Origin: Bacteroidota bacterium
GTDB lineage: Bacteria > Bacteroidota > Bacteroidia > AKYH767-A > OLB10
Assembly (NCBI GenBank): GCA_024643795.1
Contig: JAHEMF010000002.1
Span: 14-64,013, forward strand
Direction of reading: 5' to 3'
Length of the DNA stretch: 64,000 nt
Shown: positions 34,488 to 41,698 of the stretch, piece after piece
How the letters are laid out: each line of letters starts with the position of its first letter
Numbering within the stretch: position 1 is the first letter of the stretch
Notes under the pieces: generated by a model
Database searches by the model: none
The model's input: the letters and a program-made list of their open reading frames with translations, nothing else
Told to the model about the DNA's origin: nothing
Made by a program: the position numbers and the translations under genes

Positions 34488-34551
34488 AATAAAAAAGGCG
34501 TCCCAAAGGACGCCTTTCTGAGTAAAATAAATTTCAGTTTACCGAGCTCAG
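34488..34551. repeat. 64-bp direct repeat, copy 1 (contains the terminator of 34548..37712)
   Basis: 55/64 identical to 37912..37975 by manual ungapped alignment. Confidence 0.85.
34491..34517 (-). terminator. Intrinsic terminator of the 1054-aa T9SS cargo gene
   Basis: AAAAAA-GGCGTCC-CAAA-GGACGCC-TTT; U tract on the minus strand. Confidence 0.85.
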
Positions 34552-37500
34552 TTGACTTCTCTGAGCAATTTCACGGTACCCTGGTATGATTTTCCGCTCT
34601 GCAGATTCAGGGAGTAGAAGTAAGTTCCGTCAGGCAGATCATCACCGTCCCAGTTATTCTGGTAGTTTCCTGACTCATACACGATGTTACCCCATCGGTT
34701 GAATATTTTGAGTGCGCTGTTAGGATTAGCCTCTAGATTTTTGATGAAGAACACATCATTCTTGTTGTCACCATTACCTGGGGTAAATATGTTAGGGATC
34801 ACCACATCACAAGGTGAGATGGTAACATCATCCTGTCCTCGGCATCCGTTAGGATCGGTAACTTCTACGGTATATACTCCTGAAGCAGCAGGGGTGATGG
34901 TTTGTCCGGTTTCACTGATGATGCTGCCGTTGAGTGACCACACGTAGGAGCTACCTGCATTACCGGCATCCAGTGAAGGAGGCGTAGATCCGTCACCGCA
35001 AATGAGCTGGTTCTCACCCAGCTCAACCACCGGATTGGGGTTCACGGTAAGTGAGAGACTTGAAGAGCCATCGCAACCGTCGTTATTGGTCACGGTTACA
35101 TCATAGGTGCCTGTAGAACTAACAGTGATGGTAGCGGTAGTTTCACCGGTACTCCATTGGTAGGAGTTAAATCCGGCACCGGCATCGAACACAGAGTTCT
35201 CACCGTCACAGATATCGGTATCACCGGTCACCACCGGAGCAGGAGCCGTAAGGTTCACCGCATTAGCAGTGCCTGTACCGTCGCAGGTAGCACCAGATAT
35301 GGTAACAGTAACGGTATAGGTACCTGCTGAGGTTGGTGTAATGGTTTGAGTGGTTTCACCGGTACTCCACAGATAATTTGATCCGGGGTTTCCGGCATCC
35401 AGAGGAGCAAAGGCATCACCCGGACAAGCGAACACATCGGTAATGGAAACCGAAGGAGAAGCGATCACACTGATCTGCATGCTATCGGTACCCTGGCAAC
35501 CAGATAGGGTGGTCACCTGTACTGTATAGACTCCCGGAGCGTTCAGTCCCGGCTGATAGGTCTGGCTGTTGGCTCCTGAAATAGGCTGGCCGTTGAGCAA
35601 CCACACATACGATGAGTTGGGAACGTTGGCCACCAATGCTGTAGGTGAATCATTATCACAAATGGTCTGGTCCGGGCCGATGGTTACCACCAGCTGAGCA
35701 GCAATGCTGATAGCTACCGAGTCGGTACCCACACAGTTGGTACCTGAAGTAGATACTACCACGGAATAGTTACCAGCCTGAGTAGGCTGATAGAACTGAC
35801 CAGTAGCGTTAGGTATAGCTACACCGCTATTGAACCACTGGAAGTTGGCACCGGAGTTACCAGCGTTAAGCGGCGGGATAGGGTCGGTGTTACATAAGCT
35901 CAGGTCAGGCCCCAGGTTAACAACAGGAGACTGTTCAATGAGTACTTCAACAGTATCCGTACCGAAACAGGCAGGTGATGCTGTAACGGTAACCACATAG
36001 GTACCGGATTGAGAAGCAGTGATGGTTTGATTGGTTTCGTTAGGCAGGATGTTGCCGTTTAACGCCCATATATAAGTGAAGTTAGAAAGTCCGGCATCAA
36101 GAACAGGAGTAGGGTCGGTATCGCACACAGCAATATCAGGACCGGCACTCACGATAAGGTTGTTGATGATATTAAGCACCGCCAGAGTATCACCGGCGTT
36201 GATATAGGTTCCGCAATCGTTCGTAAATGTGTTGTTGTCGGTACCATTTTGAACAATGAGGTACACCGGAGTAGCTGGAGAAATGTTGCTACCCACACTG
36301 AAGGTGATGGAGTTTGAAACGCCGTTACCACCGGGGCAGTTCGTCACTGCAGTTACCGGATACTGGGTTCCGTTGGCATCCACCAAGAAGAATTCGGATC
36401 CGCCACCCGATAAGGTATTGCATTGCACATTGTACTGGAAGGTTACAGTAATATCGTTGAAGGTACATCCTACATTGAGCACCTCAGTATCAAAGATACC
36501 TGGATCGATAACCTCGTAACCTAGTGAATCAAATTCAGGCATCTCAACACCACATTCACTCAGGAATGTGTTGCCGTCGAACCCGGTCTTGGTAAAGGCA
36601 TAAGTTATACCTGCAGTGAGCGGATAAAATACGGTTACCAGAATGCTGTCGGTTTGTCCGTTGGTACAATTGATAGGCACAGCATTAAGAACAGGATTAG
36701 GTGTTCCCTGAGGTGTTACCACACGTATATCGGTAGGCACAATGGAAGCACACTGAACAGGATCCTGAAGTACCAGAATGAAAGTAGTGTCGGCGCATGA
36801 AGCCGTATAGAACTGGGTAGGATTACCCTGTGGATCGGTAGGAGGGGTCCATGCCGGAGCAGAACCGATACATCCACCCACTATGTTGATTTGAATATCT
36901 CTCTTTACATGACCGATTTTAAATCCATTGCGAAACTCTTCGCACAGTACGGCTATAACGCCCACCTCTATTTGAGAAGGTATGAAGTTGATGGTACCTG
37001 TTTGTGGGTCAATAGAAACCGGACCGTTAGTTGCTACAGGCTGTAAACCGCTGTAGCCTGGCTGATATTGCAATGAAGTAGCACCGGGATTACCCTGAGC
37101 ATCCACCAGTGAATATACCAGTGAGTCTCCGTCAATATCGGTAGCACCCTGGTTGTAGAAGAACTGATTACCTACACAGAATTGAGTTACCGGAATGTTT
37201 GAGAATACCGGTGAGCTGTTTGTAGGTGCATTTAAATTATCCAGGAAACTGGTCACATACATATCATCTCCACCCGGACCAACAATAGTTGTGATCTGAG
37301 CATTACGGCAACATAATGAAAATACAAACTGCCAGTCAGAACAGGCAACCGGTAAATTAACGGTTCCCTGATAGATCCATTCTTGCACTCCGTACCCTGA
37401 TCCTCCATTACAAGTAGTTGTTACCGGAGGTAGACATGGCGATGGCGGGATCGGCTGCCCGGTTCCAGGAATGGCTTGCAGGGTAATATTTCCTCCTGCC

Positions 37501-37712
37501 GCACAGCTGGAGCTATAATTCACTGTAGTGCTGGTTGGAGCTGTAATACCGTCACAGTCTCTGTAAAACCTTAAGGTTACTAGGTATTGGTTAGGACCTA
37601 TGTATTCATATGTAACGTCGGCACCTACGCCATGAGAGGCAAATGCCTCGTCAGCAGGTAGTGCAAATACTGCAACCAGGGCTGTCACAAGGATCGATAA
37701 TAGCTTTTTCAT
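34548..37712 (-). CDS. Large secreted T9SS cargo/adhesin with six Cys-containing Ig-like repeats and a type B (gliding motility-associated) C-terminal domain
   Basis: Signal peptide (AFA-SH); N-terminal SHGVGAD..Y..LRFYRDC domain; six ~75-80 aa repeats (LGPD..C..LDAG..Y.W..GTY.V.VT..C.GTD); CTD IPNIFTPGNGDNKNDVF..IFNRWG..WDG..GTYFY..GTVKLLR. Confidence 0.88.
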   Translation of the reverse strand: MKKLLSILVTALVAVFALPADEAFASHGVGADVTYEYIGPNQYLVTLRFYRDCDGITAPTSTTVNYSSSCAAGGNITLQAIPGTGQPIPPSPCLPPVTTTCNGGSGYGVQEWIYQGTVNLPVACSDWQFVFSLCCRNAQITTIVGPGGDDMYVTSFLDNLNAPTNSSPVFSNIPVTQFCVGNQFFYNQGATDIDGDSLVYSLVDAQGNPGATSLQYQPGYSGLQPVATNGPVSIDPQTGTINFIPSQIEVGVIAVLCEEFRNGFKIGHVKRDIQINIVGGCIGSAPAWTPPTDPQGNPTQFYTASCADTTFILVLQDPVQCASIVPTDIRVVTPQGTPNPVLNAVPINCTNGQTDSILVTVFYPLTAGITYAFTKTGFDGNTFLSECGVEMPEFDSLGYEVIDPGIFDTEVLNVGCTFNDITVTFQYNVQCNTLSGGGSEFFLVDANGTQYPVTAVTNCPGGNGVSNSITFSVGSNISPATPVYLIVQNGTDNNTFTNDCGTYINAGDTLAVLNIINNLIVSAGPDIAVCDTDPTPVLDAGLSNFTYIWALNGNILPNETNQTITASQSGTYVVTVTASPACFGTDTVEVLIEQSPVVNLGPDLSLCNTDPIPPLNAGNSGANFQWFNSGVAIPNATGQFYQPTQAGNYSVVVSTSGTNCVGTDSVAISIAAQLVVTIGPDQTICDNDSPTALVANVPNSSYVWLLNGQPISGANSQTYQPGLNAPGVYTVQVTTLSGCQGTDSMQISVIASPSVSITDVFACPGDAFAPLDAGNPGSNYLWSTGETTQTITPTSAGTYTVTVTISGATCDGTGTANAVNLTAPAPVVTGDTDICDGENSVFDAGAGFNSYQWSTGETTATITVSSTGTYDVTVTNNDGCDGSSSLSLTVNPNPVVELGENQLICGDGSTPPSLDAGNAGSSYVWSLNGSIISETGQTITPAASGVYTVEVTDPNGCRGQDDVTISPCDVVIPNIFTPGNGDNKNDVFFIKNLEANPNSALKIFNRWGNIVYESGNYQNNWDGDDLPDGTYFYSLNLQSGKSYQGTVKLLREVN

Positions 37713-37768
37713 TTTTTCGTTTTGGTTTTTAAGATCTTGGGATAGTTATAATGTATTTCCTTTTGTTA

Positions 37769-37798
37769 AAAGACGATTTGAAGCGCATTCTAGTTGCA
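37769..37798 (-). promoter_or_regulatory. ECF sigma-type promoter of the T9SS cargo gene
   Basis: Minus strand TGCAAC (37798-37793), 17-nt spacer, CGTCTTT; same motif and spacing as upstream of the ECF gene. Confidence 0.75.
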
Positions 37799-37911
37799 GC
37801 TGCAGAAGATAAAAAGGAAATATTATATAAGTATAAAGTGTTTATATTCAGTTAGTTAAATAGATTTAGCCTGAAAAAGGTGTTTTAAAGTCCTCAAATT
37901 CAGGCCATAAA

Positions 37912-37975
37912 AATAAAAAAGACGTCCCAAAGGACGTCTTTTTAAGCAAAATAAATTTCAGATTACAGGGGTCAG
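37912..37975. repeat. 64-bp direct repeat, copy 2
   Basis: 55/64 identical to 34488..34551. Confidence 0.85.
37915..37943 (-). terminator. Intrinsic terminator of the sigma/anti-sigma operon
   Basis: AAAAAA-GACGTCC-CAAA-GGACGTC-TTTTT. Confidence 0.85.
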
Positions 37976-38022: not shown

Positions 38023-39219
38023 TCAACGCATGAGTTTCAGAGTTCCTTTATGATTGTGAACCTTACCGTCATTTCCTGTAGCATATATCACATAAAAGTA
38101 AGTTTCCTTAGGAGCTGCTTCGCCATTACCAAGGTTGCCATTCCATCCAAGTTCAGGATCAGTGAAACGTGCTACCTGCTTACCTCTACGGTCATAAATT
38201 GCCACATCAACTGAGGCTAGTTGCTCAGACCTGATGGTGAAAATATCATTGATACCATCTCCATTTGGCGTAAATACGTTAGGAATGAAATTTTTTAGAA
38301 AATCATCTTCTTCAACTGTAACCAACACGGGTTCTTTATGTGTATTTCCATCCCCATCTTTGAAACTTGCCCATGCAGTATATGTGCCGGGTATCTCATA
38401 TTCATGACTTATTGCTGAACCACCAAATCCTGATGCTCCATCTCCGAACTCCCAAACAACTTCTCCATGGAAGGCAGGAACTTTAAGGTCAACACCCAAA
38501 GGTGCCACACCCTTAACAGGATCTGCAACCAACTCAAATTGCTTCAGCTGAGTTGCTGATTTATCAGGAATATTTTCACGTGTTACTTGACCTGGAGTTT
38601 GCTTTTGTTGTGTGGGACTATTTTCAACTACAGTTTTTTCAGCATGAGCTAATAATACAGGATCACTCTGATCAGTAGCCCTTTGGTTTCCTGACTGAGT
38701 TACACTTACCGGTGCTGAAGGATTAAGCTTCTGAACAGGAGTGTTATTTTTTGCGCGTTTCTGAACAGCTGAATTATTTTCAACAGCTGAACTATTACTT
38801 GAATGGGATGTATTCTCCTCAGATCGGTTTTCCTGCAAATCAGATTCTTCACCCATCGACATGGCAGTTGTATTGGATGGTTCCATCTGCTGCGAGGGAT
38901 CTTCATAAATATTACCGGCTTGCTCAGTGCTTTGACTGTTCTGAACATTTGCAGATTCTTCCTCTTTTGGAGATGCGAAGTACAGTACGGAAGCAGTAAC
39001 AGCCACGATAGCTGCACCTCCCCATACACCCAGCCCAAGCCCTCCTTTGGCACCACTGGCTGCTGATGTTACACCACCTGAATTCCCTGAAGGGGATGAC
39101 GGTGCTGAAGGTGTTGGGATTTGACTCTTGATCGAATCCCAAAGTTCAGGCCTGACCGGCTCTTCATAACCGTTGAAGGTGTCCCTGAATAAATTTTCTA
39201 TGTTTTCTTTCGGTTCCAC
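38023..39219 (-). CDS. Putative membrane anti-sigma factor with a PKD domain and a type B T9SS C-terminal domain
   Basis: No signal peptide; N-terminal IENLFRDTFNGYEEPVRPELWDSI motif; TM helix aa ~61-83; S/N/Q/E/T-rich linker aa ~84-225; PKD (WEFGDG..SHEY..PGTY); CTD IPNVFTPNGDGINDIF..IYDRRG..WNG..TYFY..KGTLKLMR; GTG start abuts the sigma TAA. Confidence 0.8.
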   Translation of the reverse strand: MEPKENIENLFRDTFNGYEEPVRPELWDSIKSQIPTPSAPSSPSGNSGGVTSAASGAKGGLGLGVWGGAAIVAVTASVLYFASPKEEESANVQNSQSTEQAGNIYEDPSQQMEPSNTTAMSMGEESDLQENRSEENTSHSSNSSAVENNSAVQKRAKNNTPVQKLNPSAPVSVTQSGNQRATDQSDPVLLAHAEKTVVENSPTQQKQTPGQVTRENIPDKSATQLKQFELVADPVKGVAPLGVDLKVPAFHGEVVWEFGDGASGFGGSAISHEYEIPGTYTAWASFKDGDGNTHKEPVLVTVEEDDFLKNFIPNVFTPNGDGINDIFTIRSEQLASVDVAIYDRRGKQVARFTDPELGWNGNLGNGEAAPKETYFYVIYATGNDGKVHNHKGTLKLMR

Positions 39220-39759
39220 TTAAACCAATTTTTCTGTTGTTTCTACCAATTTCTGCAAATAAACCCTTGCCCGTGAATATTGTGATTTTGAGGTACTCTC
39301 AGAGATTCCTAGCATTGAAGCTATCTCTTTGTGGGCAAAACCCTCTACTGCATATAAATTAAATACTGTTCTGAATCCTGGTGGCATGGTTCTCATCAAT
39401 TTGAGAAGATCTTTGGCATTCATAGACTCAATTGTATGATCTTCTGCAAATGCCTCTGCACTGGCCACTTCAAGATCTATCATCTTGCCGAACGATTTAT
39501 TCTTCCTTATCTGATCCAATGCGGTATTTACCATAACTCTTCGTATCCATCCTTCCAATGACCCTTCTCCTTTGAAACTGCTGATCCTGAAAAAGACCTT
39601 TATAAAGCCCTCCTGCAGGATATCTTCAGCCTCATCAGATGAACTTGCGTATCGGGCGCATACACCAAGCATCCGGCCGCTGAAGCGGTCGAATAATTGT
39701 TTTTGTGCCTTAGGATCGCCTTCACGGCAACCCTTTGCGAGTTCTTCATCAGGTATCAT
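39220..39759 (-). CDS. ECF RNA polymerase sigma factor (probably ECF21-like)
   Basis: Region 2 AEDILQEGFIKVF and GSLEGWIRRVMVNTALD; region 4 RTVFNLYAVEGFAHKEIASMLGISESTSKSQYSRAR. Confidence 0.93.
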   Translation of the reverse strand: MIPDEELAKGCREGDPKAQKQLFDRFSGRMLGVCARYASSSDEAEDILQEGFIKVFFRISSFKGEGSLEGWIRRVMVNTALDQIRKNKSFGKMIDLEVASAEAFAEDHTIESMNAKDLLKLMRTMPPGFRTVFNLYAVEGFAHKEIASMLGISESTSKSQYSRARVYLQKLVETTEKLV

Positions 39760-39777: not shown

Positions 39778-39807
39778 AAAGACCCATAAAAAGGCGATAG
39801 GGTTGCA
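39778..39807 (-). promoter_or_regulatory. Putative autoregulatory ECF promoter of the sigma gene
   Basis: Minus strand TGCAAC (39807-39802), 17-nt spacer, GGTCTTT. Confidence 0.75.
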
Positions 39808-39832
39808 CAGGGGTCATTTATTTTTTCTCTTA

Positions 39833-39840: not shown

Positions 39841-39910
39841 AGAATTAGGGCGTTAGGAAACAACCAGACCGCCCTTGGCATTGGTTAAAAAGCTATTTTT
39901 GCAGCCCCAT

Positions 39911-41698
39911 ATGGAAAACATCCGCAATTTCTGCATCATTGCCCACATCGATCACGGCAAAAGTACACTGGCCGACAGGCTGTTAGAGTTTACAAACACC
40001 GTAACGGCCCGTGACCTGCAGGCTCAGGTGCTCGATGATATGGACCTTGAAAGAGAGCGTGGTATCACCATAAAGAGCCATGCCATACAAATGGACTTCG
40101 AAAAACAGGGCATAAAATATGTCCTCAATCTCATTGATACTCCGGGTCACGTTGACTTTTCATATGAAGTTTCCCGCTCCATAGCAGCCTGTGAAGGAGC
40201 ACTGCTGGTAGTTGATGCCGCTCAGGGGATCCAGGCACAAACCATTTCAAACCTTTACCTGGCCCTTGAAAACGACCTGCACATTATTCCTGTGCTCAAT
40301 AAAATAGATCTTCCCAGCGCCGAGCCTGAGGTGGTGAAAGATCAGATAGTAGATCTTATTGGATGCGATAGAGATGAGATCATCCACGCAAGTGCCAAAA
40401 CAGGAATTGGTATAGAAGATATTCTCGATGCTATCATTAATCGGGTCCCTGCACCAACTGGTGACCCCAAAGCTCCTCTTAAAGCACTTATTTTTGATTC
40501 AGTATTTAATTCATTCCGAGGGATCATCGCTTATTTCAAAGTGATGGATGGTGAGATCCACAAAAATGACCTTGTGAAATTCGTGGCCACAGGAATGCAA
40601 TATGAGGCTGATGAAATAGGAATCCTTAAACTTGAAAAAACTCCAAAGCAGAAAATCGGAGCCGGCGATGTAGGGTATATCATTTCAGGGATCAAAGAAG
40701 CACGTGAAGTAAAAGTAGGAGATACCATTACTCACGTTAAGCGCCCATGCGAAAAAGCTGTCGAAGGATTTGAAGATGTAAAGCCCATGGTGTTTGCAGG
40801 AATTTATCCGGTTGACACCGATGAATATGAAGATCTGAGAACATCTATAGAGAAGCTTCAGCTTAACGATGCTTCCCTGGTGTTTGAACCTGAAGCCTCT
40901 GCAGCCCTTGGATTCGGATTTCGTTGTGGATTTTTAGGAATGCTCCACATGGAGATCATCCAGGAACGCCTCGAACGTGAGTTTGACATGACCGTCATTA
41001 CCACAGTGCCTAACGTATCATATCATGCATACCTTACAAGTGGTGATTTCATGGAAGTCAACAACCCTTCAGACTTTCCAGATCCCAGTAAACTGGACCG
41101 TATAGAAGAACCTTATATCAAAGCTACTATCATCACAAAGTCTGATTTCATCGGCTCTATCATGACACTTTGTATTGGTAAAAGAGGTATGCTTATCAAT
41201 CAAAGTTATCTTACAACCGACAGGGTGGAACTCATCTTTGAAATGCCATTGGCAGAGATCGTTTTCGATTTTTACGACAAATTAAAATCCATCTCCAAGG
41301 GTTATGCTTCGTTCGACTATCATCCTATCGGTTACAAACAAAGTCATCTGGTGCGACTTGATATCAGACTTAATGGTGATCCCGTTGATGCGCTTTCTGC
41401 ACTTATTCATCGCGACCACGCATATTCATTCGGTAAAAAGATGTGCGAAAAACTTAAAGAGCTTATCACACGTCAGCAGTTTGAGATCGCAATTCAGGCA
41501 TCTATCGGTTCCAAGATCATTGCACGAGAAACCGTTAAGGCCTTACGCAAAGATGTAACAGCAAAATGTTACGGCGGTGATATTTCACGTAAACGTAAGC
41601 TGCTCGAAAAACAAAAAGAAGGTAAAAAGCGTATGCGTCAGGTGGGTAGCATCGAAATACCTCAGCAGGCTTTTCTTGCGGTCCTTAAACTCGACTAA
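39911..41698 (+). CDS. lepA: Translation elongation factor 4
   Basis: [36 protein letters not shown] and [18 protein letters not shown] motifs; start ATG 39911 after TATTTTTG (39894-39901). Confidence 0.97.

What the first reader, a model, noticed from the sequence alone, without database searches (positions are those of the whole stretch)
38023..39759. ECF sigma paired with an anti-sigma-like membrane protein that carries a type IX secretion (type B CTD) signal
Seen in sequence: the ECF stop codon directly abuts the GTG start of a 398-aa gene (TAAGTG), implying translational coupling. The protein has no Sec signal peptide. It has a cytoplasmic N-terminus (ENLFRDTFNGYEEPVRPELWDSI), one Gly/Ala-rich TM helix (aa ~61-83), ~140 aa of low-complexity S/N/Q/E/T/P linker, a PKD domain (aa ~226-303) and an intact type B T9SS CTD (aa ~311-398). 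Established knowledge: the B. thetaiotaomicron dual-membrane-spanning anti-sigma Dma1 (ECF21 partner Das1) has a sigma-binding N-terminus, a TM helix, a disordered periplasmic tether and an outer-membrane beta-barrel. Type B CTDs (TIGR04131/CHU_C) normally sit on signal-peptide-bearing cargo and engage PorP/SprF barrels. Inference: the barrel is replaced here by a T9SS sorting signal, so an inner-membrane-anchored anti-sigma could be gripped or threaded by the T9SS. Pulling, stalling or failed docking could then trigger intramembrane proteolysis and release the sigma. That would make it a secretion-state sensor for the T9SS, conceptually like FlgM/FliA. I do not know of a characterised example.
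Basis: partly seen in the sequence, partly recalled or inferred. Interest (0 to 1): 0.92.

Follow-up and report, generated by a model that had tools for sequence, protein, structure and literature searches.

The report
Anti-sigma factor with T9SS secretion tag
A membrane-anchored inhibitor of a bacterial gene-switch protein ends in the address tag of the Bacteroidota type IX secretion system and usually sits beside genes for large secreted surface proteins, which suggests an undescribed way of tying gene expression to that secretion machine.

Summary
On the minus strand, an ECF sigma gene (39220-39759) abuts (TAAGTG) a 398-aa gene (38023-39219). That gene encodes a conserved N-terminal motif, one hydrophobic segment, a ~144-aa disordered linker, a PKD domain and a complete type B T9SS C-terminal domain (CTD), with no signal peptide.

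The architecture recurs: 15 distinct genomic examples and 32 metagenomic protein clusters. The N-terminal motif and the sigma are shared with ECF-linked anti-sigmas that end in an outer-membrane beta-barrel (Dma-like). In 75 of 75 assessable loci the homologous sigma lies immediately upstream. A folded complex supports binding (0.61 versus 0.01 for controls).

New here:
- 10 of 14 assessable CTD-type anti-sigmas are followed directly by a large signal-peptide-bearing type B cargo gene, against 0 of 37 barrel or short-type controls.
- The sigma's own promoter motif recurs upstream of the neighbouring cargo gene and of other T9SS cargo genes in this genome (5 of the top 10; p about 7e-4).

Best reading: a Dma-type anti-sigma whose barrel is replaced by a T9SS signal, coupling a cargo-gene regulon to the T9SS. 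The signalling mechanism (pulling, proteolysis, direction) is untested. I found no description in the literature searched. It is a new variant of a known kind.

The parts
39778..39808 (-). ECF-type promoter-like site upstream of the sigma gene (-35 block containing GCAAC, 13-nt gap between the scored blocks, -10 block containing GGTCT). It ends 19 nt before the sigma ORF.
   Evidence: PWM score 19.1, the best among the upstream regions of 1485 genes. The same motif scores at least 9 upstream of the sigma in 42 of 68 training loci, and at least 15 in 6 of 7 held-out loci.
39220..39759 (-). ECF (group 4) sigma-70 factor, 179 aa
   Evidence: Pfam Sigma70_r2 and Sigma70_r4_2; TIGR02937 at 93.3 bits. 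It is the only member of its subgroup in the genome: the next best ECF scores 50.6 bits against 385 for self.
38023..39219 (-). Anti-sigma gene, 398 aa. Its GTG start abuts the TAA stop of the sigma gene.
39109..39219 (-). Residues 1-37: conserved cytoplasmic sigma-binding motif (two short helices, residues 5-15 and 24-33)
   Evidence: The motif is conserved from residue 1 in 32 of the 120 listed homologues and in 68 genomic loci. The predicted interface uses residues 7-37.
38971..39039 (-). Residues 61-83: Gly/Ala-rich hydrophobic segment, read as an inner-membrane anchor (signal-anchor, N-terminus inside)
   Evidence: Hydropathy maximum of 1.89 at residue 61. A hydrophobic segment lies at residues 38-94 in all 68 family members. 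AlphaFold2 did not model it as a helix.
38539..38970 (-). Residues 84-227: low-complexity, disordered linker
   Evidence: pLDDT below 50. Composition S20 Q17 E15 N15 T12 of 144 residues. Not alignable among homologues.
38311..38538 (-). Residues 228-303: PKD domain
   Evidence: Pfam PKD_4. pLDDT about 90. Foldseek matches the ColG PKD domain, target-normalised TM-score 0.72-0.76.
38026..38289 (-). Residues 311-398: type B T9SS C-terminal sorting domain
   Evidence: CHU_C 67.4 bits; TIGR04131 57.9 bits. Conserved columns.
37916..37943 (-). Intrinsic-terminator-like hairpin (12-bp stem plus T run) after the anti-sigma gene
37769..37799 (-). Second copy of the ECF-type promoter motif (-35 block containing TGCAAC, -10 block containing CGTCTT), 56 nt upstream of the cargo ATG
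   Evidence: The strict pattern has 90 matches in 5.77 Mb of both strands, so about 0.005 are expected in these 310 nt. PWM score is 13.4, with 0.019 expected in 310 nt. The syntenic relative L122 has a site scoring 18.2 at the same place.
34548..37712 (-). 1054-aa type B T9SS cargo with an N-terminal signal-peptide-like segment; the likely regulon member
   Evidence: CHU_C 80.7 bits; TIGR04131 52.8 bits. Homologous cargo stands next to the anti-sigma in L074 and L122.

Best explanation
This is a cognate ECF sigma / anti-sigma pair of the Dma (dual-membrane-spanning) design. The usual C-terminal outer-membrane beta-barrel is replaced by a PKD domain plus a type B T9SS sorting domain.

How it is built:
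- Residues 1-37 hold the sigma at the inner membrane (predicted).
- Residues 61-83 anchor the protein in the inner membrane (inferred).
- The ~144-residue disordered linker crosses the periplasm (inferred).
- The PKD-CTD end is recognised by the T9SS and its PorP/SprF-type shuttles (inferred from the domain family).

How it works: sigma activity thereby depends on how the T9SS handles this tail. The released sigma transcribes its own operon and T9SS cargo genes, first of all the large type B cargo gene next door (supported by gene order and promoter motifs).

Whether release follows successful export or pulling (a FlgM-like checkpoint) or failed docking is open.
For: 1. The architecture is confirmed.

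2. It recurs.
- 32 of the 120 listed database homologues carry the N-terminal motif plus CHU_C.
- There are 7 CTD-type pairs in 6 of 401 sampled Bacteroidota genomes, and 8 more in named MAG records. All 15 proteins are at most 51% identical to one another.

3. Link to the sigma.
- Of the 73 places hit by the N-terminal profile, 68 give an ORF that starts with the motif. All 68 have a homologue of the window's sigma immediately upstream on the same strand, with a gap of -44 to +55 nt.
- The same holds for 7 of 7 assessable loci in the second sample.

4. Kinship with barrel types.
- The 68 proteins end in a beta-barrel (40), a type B CTD (7), nothing recognisable in 218-275 aa forms (17), or something else (4). 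Pfam was run on 29 of them, with 7 over the curated barrel cut-off; a local HMM covered the rest.
- In the sigma tree, 5 CTD-linked sigmas including the window's form a group (SH-aLRT 89). That group sits beside barrel-linked sigmas.
- None of the 6 genomes with a CTD type also gave a barrel-type hit.

5. Binding.
- The predicted complex scores 0.61 against a best control of 0.01 (3 controls). That mark was reached by 58 of 80 solved complexes and 2 of 110 mismatched pairs. The runs agree in at least 96% of contacts, and the partner's pLDDT is at least 68.
- My own alignments were used, so these calibration counts hold only roughly.
- Anti-sigma residues 7-37 touch sigma residues 13-57 and 110-172.
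- Published: the first 40 residues of Dma1 pull down Das1 (passages of PMC10927553).

6. Cargo neighbour.
- 10 of 14 assessable CTD-type anti-sigmas are followed on the same strand by a 1054-1397 aa type B cargo gene. Two of the ten are split into two ORFs in MAG assemblies. At least three unrelated cargo kinds are involved.
- Controls: 0 of 23 barrel-type and 0 of 14 short-type loci have a CTD gene as the next gene. One short-type locus has one as the second gene.

7. Promoter.
- The motif GCAAC-N17/18-(C/G)(A/G)TCT precedes the sigma in 42 of 68 training loci and 6 of 7 held-out loci.
- Among 1485 genes with at least 60 nt of upstream region in this genome, the sigma ranks 1.
- The top 10 below it hold 5 T9SS cargo genes out of 127 cargo genes in 1484 (p = 7.5e-4). 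Three are type B, including the neighbour (18 in 1484; p = 1.7e-4).
- Restricting to genes with at least 150 nt upstream, 5 of the top 10 are cargo, out of 75 cargo genes in 706 (p = 0.002).
- The syntenic relative L122 has a site scoring 18.2 before its cargo gene.

8. A T9SS is present: SprA, 8 PorP/SprF paralogues over cut-off, 23 type B and 127 type A CTD matches over cut-off.
Against: - No experiment, and no computation here, shows that an inner-membrane-anchored protein can be engaged by the T9SS. Published substrates carry cleavable signal peptides (abstract of PMC12618676).
- No PorP/SprF gene lies on the window's contig.
- The anti-sigma's CTD is not especially like the neighbouring cargo's CTD: 34.8% identity, 18th of 26 other CTD ORFs.
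- 4 of 14 assessable CTD-type pairs have no type B cargo as neighbour.
- No promoter site was found before the cargo in L074, L145, L149 or L151.
- The PWM is weakly specific, with 349 hits of at least 13.4 in the genome. The rank cut-offs were chosen after seeing the list; at a score of at least 14 only 1 of 7 genes is type B (p = 0.08). ECF promoters of different groups look alike, so another of the roughly 9 ECF sigmas might read these sites.
- For the window's own protein the positive-inside signal is weak: one Lys directly before the hydrophobic segment, and a net acidic N-terminus. AlphaFold2 gave no helix there.
- The 281-aa forms have linkers of only about 40 residues, estimated. That may be too short to cross the periplasm and the outer membrane.
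- Sigma/anti-sigma complexes have been solved, so the complex score may partly reflect likeness to known structures.
Confidence: 0.5

Rival explanations
1. Dma-like envelope tether. The T9SS is only the route by which the C-terminus is installed at the outer membrane or cell surface, in place of BAM-dependent barrel insertion. The signal sensed is something else, such as envelope stress, membrane spacing or growth phase, as is still open for Dma1. The cargo neighbours are regulon members but the T9SS state is not what is sensed.
For: - CTD types sit where barrel types sit, in an otherwise identical design. None of the 6 genomes with a CTD type gave a barrel-type hit.
- Dma1 is processed in a growth-phase-dependent way (passages of PMC10927553).
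Against: - It does not explain why type B cargo genes follow 10 of 14 CTD-type anti-sigmas but 0 of 37 barrel or short types.
- It does not explain why the promoter motif is enriched before T9SS cargo genes.
- That said, a cargo regulon is compatible with a non-T9SS signal.
Confidence: 0.25
2. Periplasmic decoy or load sensor. The PKD-CTD stays in the periplasm and competes with, or binds like, unsecreted cargo for a shuttle or translocon component. Sigma activity then reports cargo backlog rather than the anti-sigma's own export.
For: - The inner-membrane anchor argues against full export.
- The CTD is complete and of ordinary score for this genome's type B set: 67.1 bits, 17th of 24 matches.
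- PorA shows that a CTD protein can feed into T9SS regulation (abstract of PMC7712824).
Against: - The CTD is not closest to the neighbouring cargo's CTD.
- The long disordered linkers, like those of Dma proteins, suggest reaching the outer membrane.
- Nothing was tested directly.
Confidence: 0.12
3. Ordinary secreted cargo. The hydrophobic segment is a cleaved signal sequence with an unusually long leader, and the link to the sigma is incidental gene order.
For: - The PKD plus type B CTD part is like many small cargo proteins.
- A V-T-A triplet inside the hydrophobic segment (read from the translation) could in principle be a signal-peptidase site; that it fits such a site is my reading from memory, not a tool result.
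Against: - The leader is conserved from residue 1 and is the most conserved part outside PKD-CTD.
- 75 of 75 assessable loci have the homologous sigma directly upstream, often with overlapping stop and start codons.
- The same leader heads barrel proteins.
- The complex prediction passes its controls.
- There is no alternative start codon before the hydrophobic segment.
Confidence: 0.03

Closest known systems
[quoted passage not shown]
   Same: - ECF sigma gene directly upstream.
- A short cytoplasmic N-terminal sigma-binding region of about 40 aa, one transmembrane segment and a long disordered periplasmic linker.
- A C-terminal module destined for the outer membrane.
- The N-terminal motif and the sigma of the window are shared with barrel-ended proteins of this design from other Bacteroidota.
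   Different: - The defining 8-stranded OMP_b-brl_2 barrel is absent. PKD plus a type B T9SS CTD stands in its place.
- Neighbours and predicted targets are T9SS cargo genes, whereas Dma1 controls vesiculation.
- The ECF21 assignment was not tested.
Type B CTD cargo of the T9SS with PorP/SprF-like shuttles (PMC12618676, abstract and section 10 read; PMC9143113, title and start of abstract only)
   Same: A complete C-terminal type B sorting domain at the very end of the protein, preceded by an Ig-like domain. The genome holds SprA and 8 PorP/SprF paralogues.
   Different: - No cleavable N-terminal signal peptide. Instead there is a 60-residue cytoplasmic sigma-binding head and a membrane anchor.
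- No adjacent shuttle gene.
- All other type B proteins of this genome begin with a hydrophobic signal-like segment or are cut by contig ends.
PorA - PorXY - SigP signalling in Porphyromonas gingivalis (PMC7712824, abstract read)
   Same: A CTD-bearing protein relays information about the cell surface or T9SS to an ECF sigma that controls T9SS-related genes.
   Different: - PorA is a separate surface protein with a type A-like CTD and acts through a two-component system.
- Here the CTD and the sigma-binding domain are on one polypeptide, so no kinase is needed.
FlgM/FliA secretion checkpoint of flagella (recalled; no paper read here)
   Same: As a concept: an anti-sigma that is itself a substrate of the machine whose late substrates the sigma controls.
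   Different: - FlgM is a small soluble protein exported whole.
- This protein is membrane-anchored, so it would need cleavage or pulling.
- Export is not shown here.

Membership tests
ECF (group 4) sigma-70 factors | Only regions sigma2 and sigma4 are present; matches the family models | tested here: met
   Sigma70_r2 55.1 bits, Sigma70_r4_2 52.2 bits, TIGR02937 93.3 bits (cut-off 42.9)
ECF group ECF21 (the group of Das1) | Assignment by the ECF classification models | not testable with these tools
   No ECF-group classifier was on hand. No equivalog-level NCBIfam model reached its cut-off.
[quoted passage not shown] | Encoded directly downstream of its ECF sigma | tested here: met
   TAAGTG junction. 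68 of 68 and 7 of 7 assessable loci have the homologous sigma upstream.
[quoted passage not shown] | N-terminal ~40 residues bind the sigma in the cytoplasm | tested here: inconclusive
   Prediction only: score 0.61 against a best control of 0.01, interface residues 7-37. The motif is shared with barrel-ended proteins.
[quoted passage not shown] | One alpha-helical transmembrane segment followed by a long intrinsically disordered linker | tested here: met
   Hydropathy peak at residues 61-83. pLDDT below 50 for residues 42-224. Caveat: the segment was not modelled as a helix.
[quoted passage not shown] | C-terminal eight-stranded outer-membrane beta-barrel (OMP_b-brl_2) | tested here: not met
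   No barrel family matched. PKD_4 and CHU_C/TIGR04131 are found instead. The protein is therefore a variant of the design, not a member as the family is defined.
[quoted passage not shown] | One polypeptide physically spans both membranes | not testable with these tools
   Needs fractionation of a doubly tagged protein.
T9SS type B CTD substrates | Complete type B sorting domain at the extreme C-terminus | tested here: met
   CHU_C profile positions 3-84 of 86, 67.4 bits. TIGR04131 positions 3-85 of 85, 57.9 bits.
T9SS type B CTD substrates | Cleavable N-terminal Sec signal peptide | tested here: not met
   Hydrophilic, conserved first 60 residues. The hydrophobic segment starts at residue 61. 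There is no alternative start codon before it. No SignalP-type tool was available.
T9SS type B CTD substrates | Cognate PorP/SprF-like shuttle, often encoded next to the cargo | tested here: not met
   There are 8 paralogues over cut-off in the genome and none on contig C25. Orphan type B substrates that share a distant shuttle are known (abstract of PMC12618676).
T9SS type B CTD substrates | Export across the outer membrane depends on the T9SS | not testable with these tools
   Needs an experiment.
Secretion-checkpoint anti-sigma (FlgM-like logic) | The sigma controls substrates of the same secretion machine | tested here: inconclusive
   Cargo gene next door in 10 of 14 pairs against 0 of 37 controls. 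Promoter motif enriched before cargo genes. No expression data.

The most novel reading that the evidence does not exclude
The anti-sigma is a true T9SS substrate that is threaded through the SprA translocon while still anchored in the inner membrane. The pull of export, or a cleavage it provokes, frees the sigma. Large adhesin-like cargo genes are then switched on only when the secretion machine is running. That would be a FlgM-like checkpoint for the T9SS and the first inner-membrane-tethered T9SS substrate.
Probability: 0.3. Interest if true: 0.9.

Novelty: new variant of a known kind. Interest (0 to 1): 0.78.

Why it matters
- How Dma-type anti-sigmas sense anything is unknown. How Bacteroidota match the expression of their very many T9SS cargo genes (about 150 in this 2.9-Mb genome) to secretion capacity is known only for PorXY-SigP in one species.
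- A single polypeptide that joins a sigma-binding head to a T9SS sorting signal, and sits next to cargo genes carrying the sigma's promoter motif, gives a directly testable link between the two.
- It would also break the rule that T9SS substrates are soluble periplasmic intermediates with cleaved signal peptides.
- The swap of a barrel for a CTD within one family suggests that reaching the outer membrane is the conserved requirement of this design. That in turn bears on how Dma1 works.

Tried and rejected
- A strict promoter pattern matched only 6 of 68 sigma upstream regions. My longest-ORF starts overshoot the true starts. I replaced it with a k-mer look and a two-block PWM.
- The idea that the anti-sigma shares its CTD type, and hence its shuttle, with the neighbouring cargo was tested and not supported: 34.8% identity, 18th of 26 other CTD ORFs.
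- A broad N-terminal profile against the 5.8-billion-protein set scored only 8000 candidates. It returned 54 proteins, mostly barrel types. It cannot be used to count CTD types.
- Foldseek against the PDB gave PKD and generic Ig-like matches only, nothing informative for the CTD.
- Sequencing runs:
  - Two DNA runs hold most of the stretch and may be its source, so they are not independent.
  - Contigs from RNA libraries, at least 99% identical, lie on 38618-38843 (anti-sigma; two runs of one study), 34714-34909 and 35182-35372 (cargo), and 37557-37779 (cargo 5' end; another study).
  - These are contigs. DNA carry-over cannot be excluded, and the uncovered parts say nothing. I do not count this as evidence of transcription or of operon structure.
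- Five of the 73 places (L047, L059, L066, L068, L072; E-values 5e-4 to 0.0095, one with an internal TGA, one a 52-aa frame) gave no ORF beginning with the motif. They were dropped before all counts. L112 and L113 were cut at the locus edge and dropped from the control. L133 lies at a contig end and was not assessable for neighbours.
- The ECF21 assignment and a direct comparison with B. thetaiotaomicron Dma1/Das1 could not be made. Supplementary figures of PMC10927553 (the Reo/Dma1 alignment and the distribution figure) were not available and may bear on that.
- Claim of no prior description: searches.
  - 16 papers hold both 'anti-sigma' and 'T9SS'. None of the 15 listed describes such a protein by title or abstract start.
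  - The two Dma papers hold 0 occurrences of 'T9SS' or 'type IX'.
  - Subscription-only papers are not covered.
Full report
**What is there**

Both genes lie on the minus strand. The sigma ORF (39220-39759, 179 aa) ends in a TAA that directly abuts the GTG start of a 398-aa ORF (38023-39219).

- The first protein is an ECF sigma: Sigma70_r2, Sigma70_r4_2, and TIGR02937 at 93.3 bits.
- The second carries CHU_C (residues 312-394, 67.4 bits), TIGR04131 (312-398, 57.9 bits against a cut-off of 35) and a PKD domain.
- Its first 60 residues are hydrophilic. The strongest hydrophobic window starts at residue 61.
- Residues 84-227 are S/Q/E/N/T-rich.
- AlphaFold2 gives two short N-terminal helices (5-15, 24-33), pLDDT below 50 from residue 42 to 224, and confident PKD (231-303) and CTD (311-398) domains. 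It did not model the Gly/Ala-rich hydrophobic segment as a helix.
- Foldseek matches the PKD domain of collagenase G, with a target-normalised TM-score of 0.72-0.76.
- Within the first 110 codons the only in-frame start codons are codon 1 and codon 72, and codon 72 lies inside the hydrophobic segment. A shorter product with an ordinary signal peptide is therefore excluded.

**It is a family, and the head belongs to the sigma**

- Of the 120 listed homologues (455 with E at most 0.001), 32 begin with the same motif from residue 1. The motif is roughly IExLF, then F, E, V.P..W..I. They have a hydrophobic segment at about residues 45-70 and end in CHU_C. About half are ~280-aa forms with a different Ig-like domain.
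- In the window's own genome only this ORF has the motif. Its sigma has no close paralogue: the next ECF scores 50.6 bits against 385 for self.
- A profile of the first 40 residues found 73 places in 68 of 401 sampled Bacteroidota genomes. 68 places give an ORF that starts with the motif.
- All 68 have a homologue of the window's sigma immediately upstream on the same strand, with gaps of -44 to +55 nt. The other 5 places, all weak hits, were dropped.

**What the tails are**

- Pfam on 29 of these proteins found CHU_C in 5. It found outer-membrane beta-barrel families in 16 (7 over the curated cut-off) and nothing in 8.
- With local profiles built from those results, the 68 proteins divide into four groups:
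  - 40 barrel-ended;
  - 17 short (218-275 aa);
  - 7 CTD-ended, namely the window, G363, G087, G099, G107 and two in G103;
  - 4 others.
- Barrel-ended, ECF-linked proteins with a short head, one transmembrane segment and a long disordered linker are what Pardue et al. define as the Dma family. They showed that the first 40 residues of Dma1 bind Das1 (PMC10927553, passages and section 11).
- In a quick maximum-likelihood tree of the 68 sigmas, five CTD-linked sigmas including the window's form a group (SH-aLRT 89). That group sits next to barrel-linked ones. Two other CTD-linked sigmas lie elsewhere on unresolved or long branches.
- The tree needs at least 3 changes, but a single origin is not excluded.
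- None of the six genomes with a CTD type also gave a barrel-type hit. The CTD form looks like a replacement within one system.

**Binding**

- The sigma was folded with residues 1-45 of the anti-sigma, using 68-row alignments. The score is 0.61 and the best of 3 controls is 0.01.
- That mark was reached by 58 of 80 solved complexes and 2 of 110 mismatched pairs. The runs agree in at least 96% of contacts, and the partner's pLDDT is at least 68. My own alignments were used, so the calibration holds only roughly.
- Residues 7-37 lie between sigma residues 13-57 and 110-172.
- Solved sigma/anti-sigma complexes exist, so part of this may be likeness to known structures. It supports binding but does not show it.

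**A conserved cargo neighbour (new)**

- In the window the anti-sigma gene is followed by a terminator-like hairpin (37916-37943). Then comes a 1054-aa protein with a signal-peptide-like start and a type B CTD (34548-37712).
- The same arrangement, a 1054-1215 aa type B cargo gene 22-310 nt downstream on the same strand, holds for 6 of the 7 CTD-type pairs of the first sample.
- A scan of named genome records found 8 more CTD-type anti-sigmas: MAGs labelled Bacteroidetes, Crocinitomicaceae, Vicingaceae and Brumimicrobium. 7 of 7 assessable have the sigma upstream.
- Of the 7 assessable for downstream genes, 4 have type B cargo next. Two of these cargo genes are intact and two are split into two ORFs. 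L122 is syntenic with the window down to metF.
- Together this is 10 of 14.
- Controls: 0 of 23 barrel-type and 0 of 14 short-type loci have a CTD gene as the next gene within about 6 kb. One short-type locus has one as the second gene.
- The cargo proteins fall into at least three unrelated kinds, and the 15 anti-sigmas are at most 51% identical. The association is therefore not one inherited block.

**Promoters and a predicted regulon (new, exploratory)**

- Upstream of the sigma genes there is a shared ECF-type motif, GCAAC, 17-18 nt, then (C/G)(A/G)TCT. A two-block PWM finds it (score at least 9) in 42 of 68 loci, including all 7 CTD types. The barrel-type loci of family f3 mostly lack it.
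- In the 7 loci of the second sample, which were not used for training, it scores 15.2-25.7 in 6.
- The window has the site at 39778-39808. A second site lies at 37769-37799, 56 nt before the cargo ATG. The chance expectation in that 310-nt gap is 0.005 for the strict pattern and 0.019 for the PWM score.
- L122 has a site scoring 18.2 in the same position. L074, L145, L149 and L151 have none. In several loci the gap is so short that co-transcription is likelier.
- I ranked the 1485 genes of this genome that have at least 60 nt of upstream region by their best site.
  - The sigma comes first.
  - The next ten hold 5 T9SS cargo genes, 3 type B including the neighbour and 2 type A.
  - The background is 127 cargo genes in 1484 (p = 7.5e-4; type B alone p = 1.7e-4).
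  - Restricting to genes with at least 150 nt upstream, 5 of the top 10 are cargo, out of 75 cargo genes in 706 (p = 0.002).
- Cautions:
  - The PWM is weak, with 349 hits of at least 13.4 genome-wide.
  - The cut-offs were chosen after seeing the ranks.
  - At a score of at least 14 the type B enrichment is not significant.
  - Another ECF sigma could read similar sites.
- In Flavobacterium psychrophilum, an ECF-type motif with a CGT -10 box precedes T9SS genes and one sigma/anti-sigma pair (passages of PMC9723704). I could not tell whether that pair belongs to this family.

**The T9SS side**

- The genome is 99.8% complete. It has SprA, 8 PorP/SprF paralogues over cut-off (none on the window's contig), 23 type B matches and 127 type A matches over cut-off.
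- All other type B proteins start with a hydrophobic signal-like segment or are cut by contig ends. The anti-sigma is the only exception.
- Its CTD is of ordinary strength, but it is not closest to the neighbouring cargo's CTD.
- Published work holds that T9SS substrates have Sec signal peptides and that type B CTDs need specific PorP/SprF shuttles, some shared by orphan substrates (PMC12618676, abstract and section 10).

**How it most likely works**

Shown or strongly supported:
- It is a cognate sigma/anti-sigma pair.
- It follows the Dma design with the barrel exchanged for PKD plus a type B CTD.
- It is linked to type B cargo genes.

Inferred:
- The head holds the sigma at the inner membrane.
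- The linker spans the periplasm.
- The CTD is taken by the T9SS and its shuttles, so that sigma release depends on that handling.
- The sigma then drives its own operon and cargo genes.

Open:
- Whether release follows export or pulling, or failure to dock.
- Whether proteolysis is involved.
- Whether the tail really crosses the outer membrane.

The main rival is a pure tether that senses something unrelated to the T9SS. A periplasmic decoy and an ordinary cargo reading are less likely. The ordinary cargo reading is close to excluded by the conserved head and the 75 of 75 synteny.

**Novelty**

The searches found no description of an anti-sigma bearing a T9SS sorting domain. The two Dma papers do not mention the T9SS. 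The closest concept is PorA, a CTD protein feeding the PorXY-SigP pathway (abstract of PMC7712824).

I rate the finding as a new variant of a known kind. Interest is high because it is recurrent, coherent and directly testable.

Supplements were not available.

Noticed in passing
own genome, contigs C30, C68, C97, C45, C36, C42; window 34548-37712; L122:5052-6509: At least 9 type B cargo proteins of this genome share an N-terminal domain right after the signal peptide. It starts (S/T)H..G(G/A)(D/E).(T/Y)Y and includes a later YRDC. No Pfam family matched it: the 485-aa ORF of L122 that consists of this part gave 0 families.
   Followed up: partly
L102-L117 (short-type loci of families f12, f4, f10, f3): All 14 short (218-275 aa) anti-sigmas of this family are followed within -1 to 99 nt by a signal-peptide-bearing ORF of 264-406 aa. 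Two of these ORFs weakly hit my barrel profile. The outer-membrane part may be encoded separately in these lineages.
   Followed up: partly
L156:8184-9583: In one MAG the CTD-type pair is followed directly by a second sigma-like gene (Sigma70_r4_2) and a 245-aa ORF that begins with a similar anti-sigma-like head.
   Followed up: no
own genome C37:31226-34280: A different ECF system: a sigma of 161 aa, a 373-aa membrane protein with a Cys/His-rich head, then a 462-aa OMP_b-brl_2 protein. Both the sigma and the barrel gene are preceded by TGTAAC ... CGTCTTA sites. Here the barrel is a separate gene.
   Followed up: no
own genome, whole: About 150 predicted T9SS cargo genes (127 type A and 23 type B matches over cut-off) in a 2.88-Mb genome, roughly 6% of the genes in my crude gene list of 2311.
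   Followed up: partly
L122:5052-8677 and L151:5923-9007: In two MAGs the cargo gene next to the anti-sigma is split into two ORFs (485+696 aa and 293+676 aa). This could be a frameshift, a real disruption or an assembly error.
   Followed up: no
L124:9634-11979 and L179:8163-10484: The two Crocinitomicaceae-type loci that lack type B cargo have a CotH plus lamin-tail-domain protein of about 775 aa near the anti-sigma instead.
   Followed up: no
window 39875-41698 (+): lepA (EF-4) lies divergently upstream of the sigma in the window and also in G107 and G103 (L077, L078). The gene identity is my reading of the translations; no family search was run.
   Followed up: no
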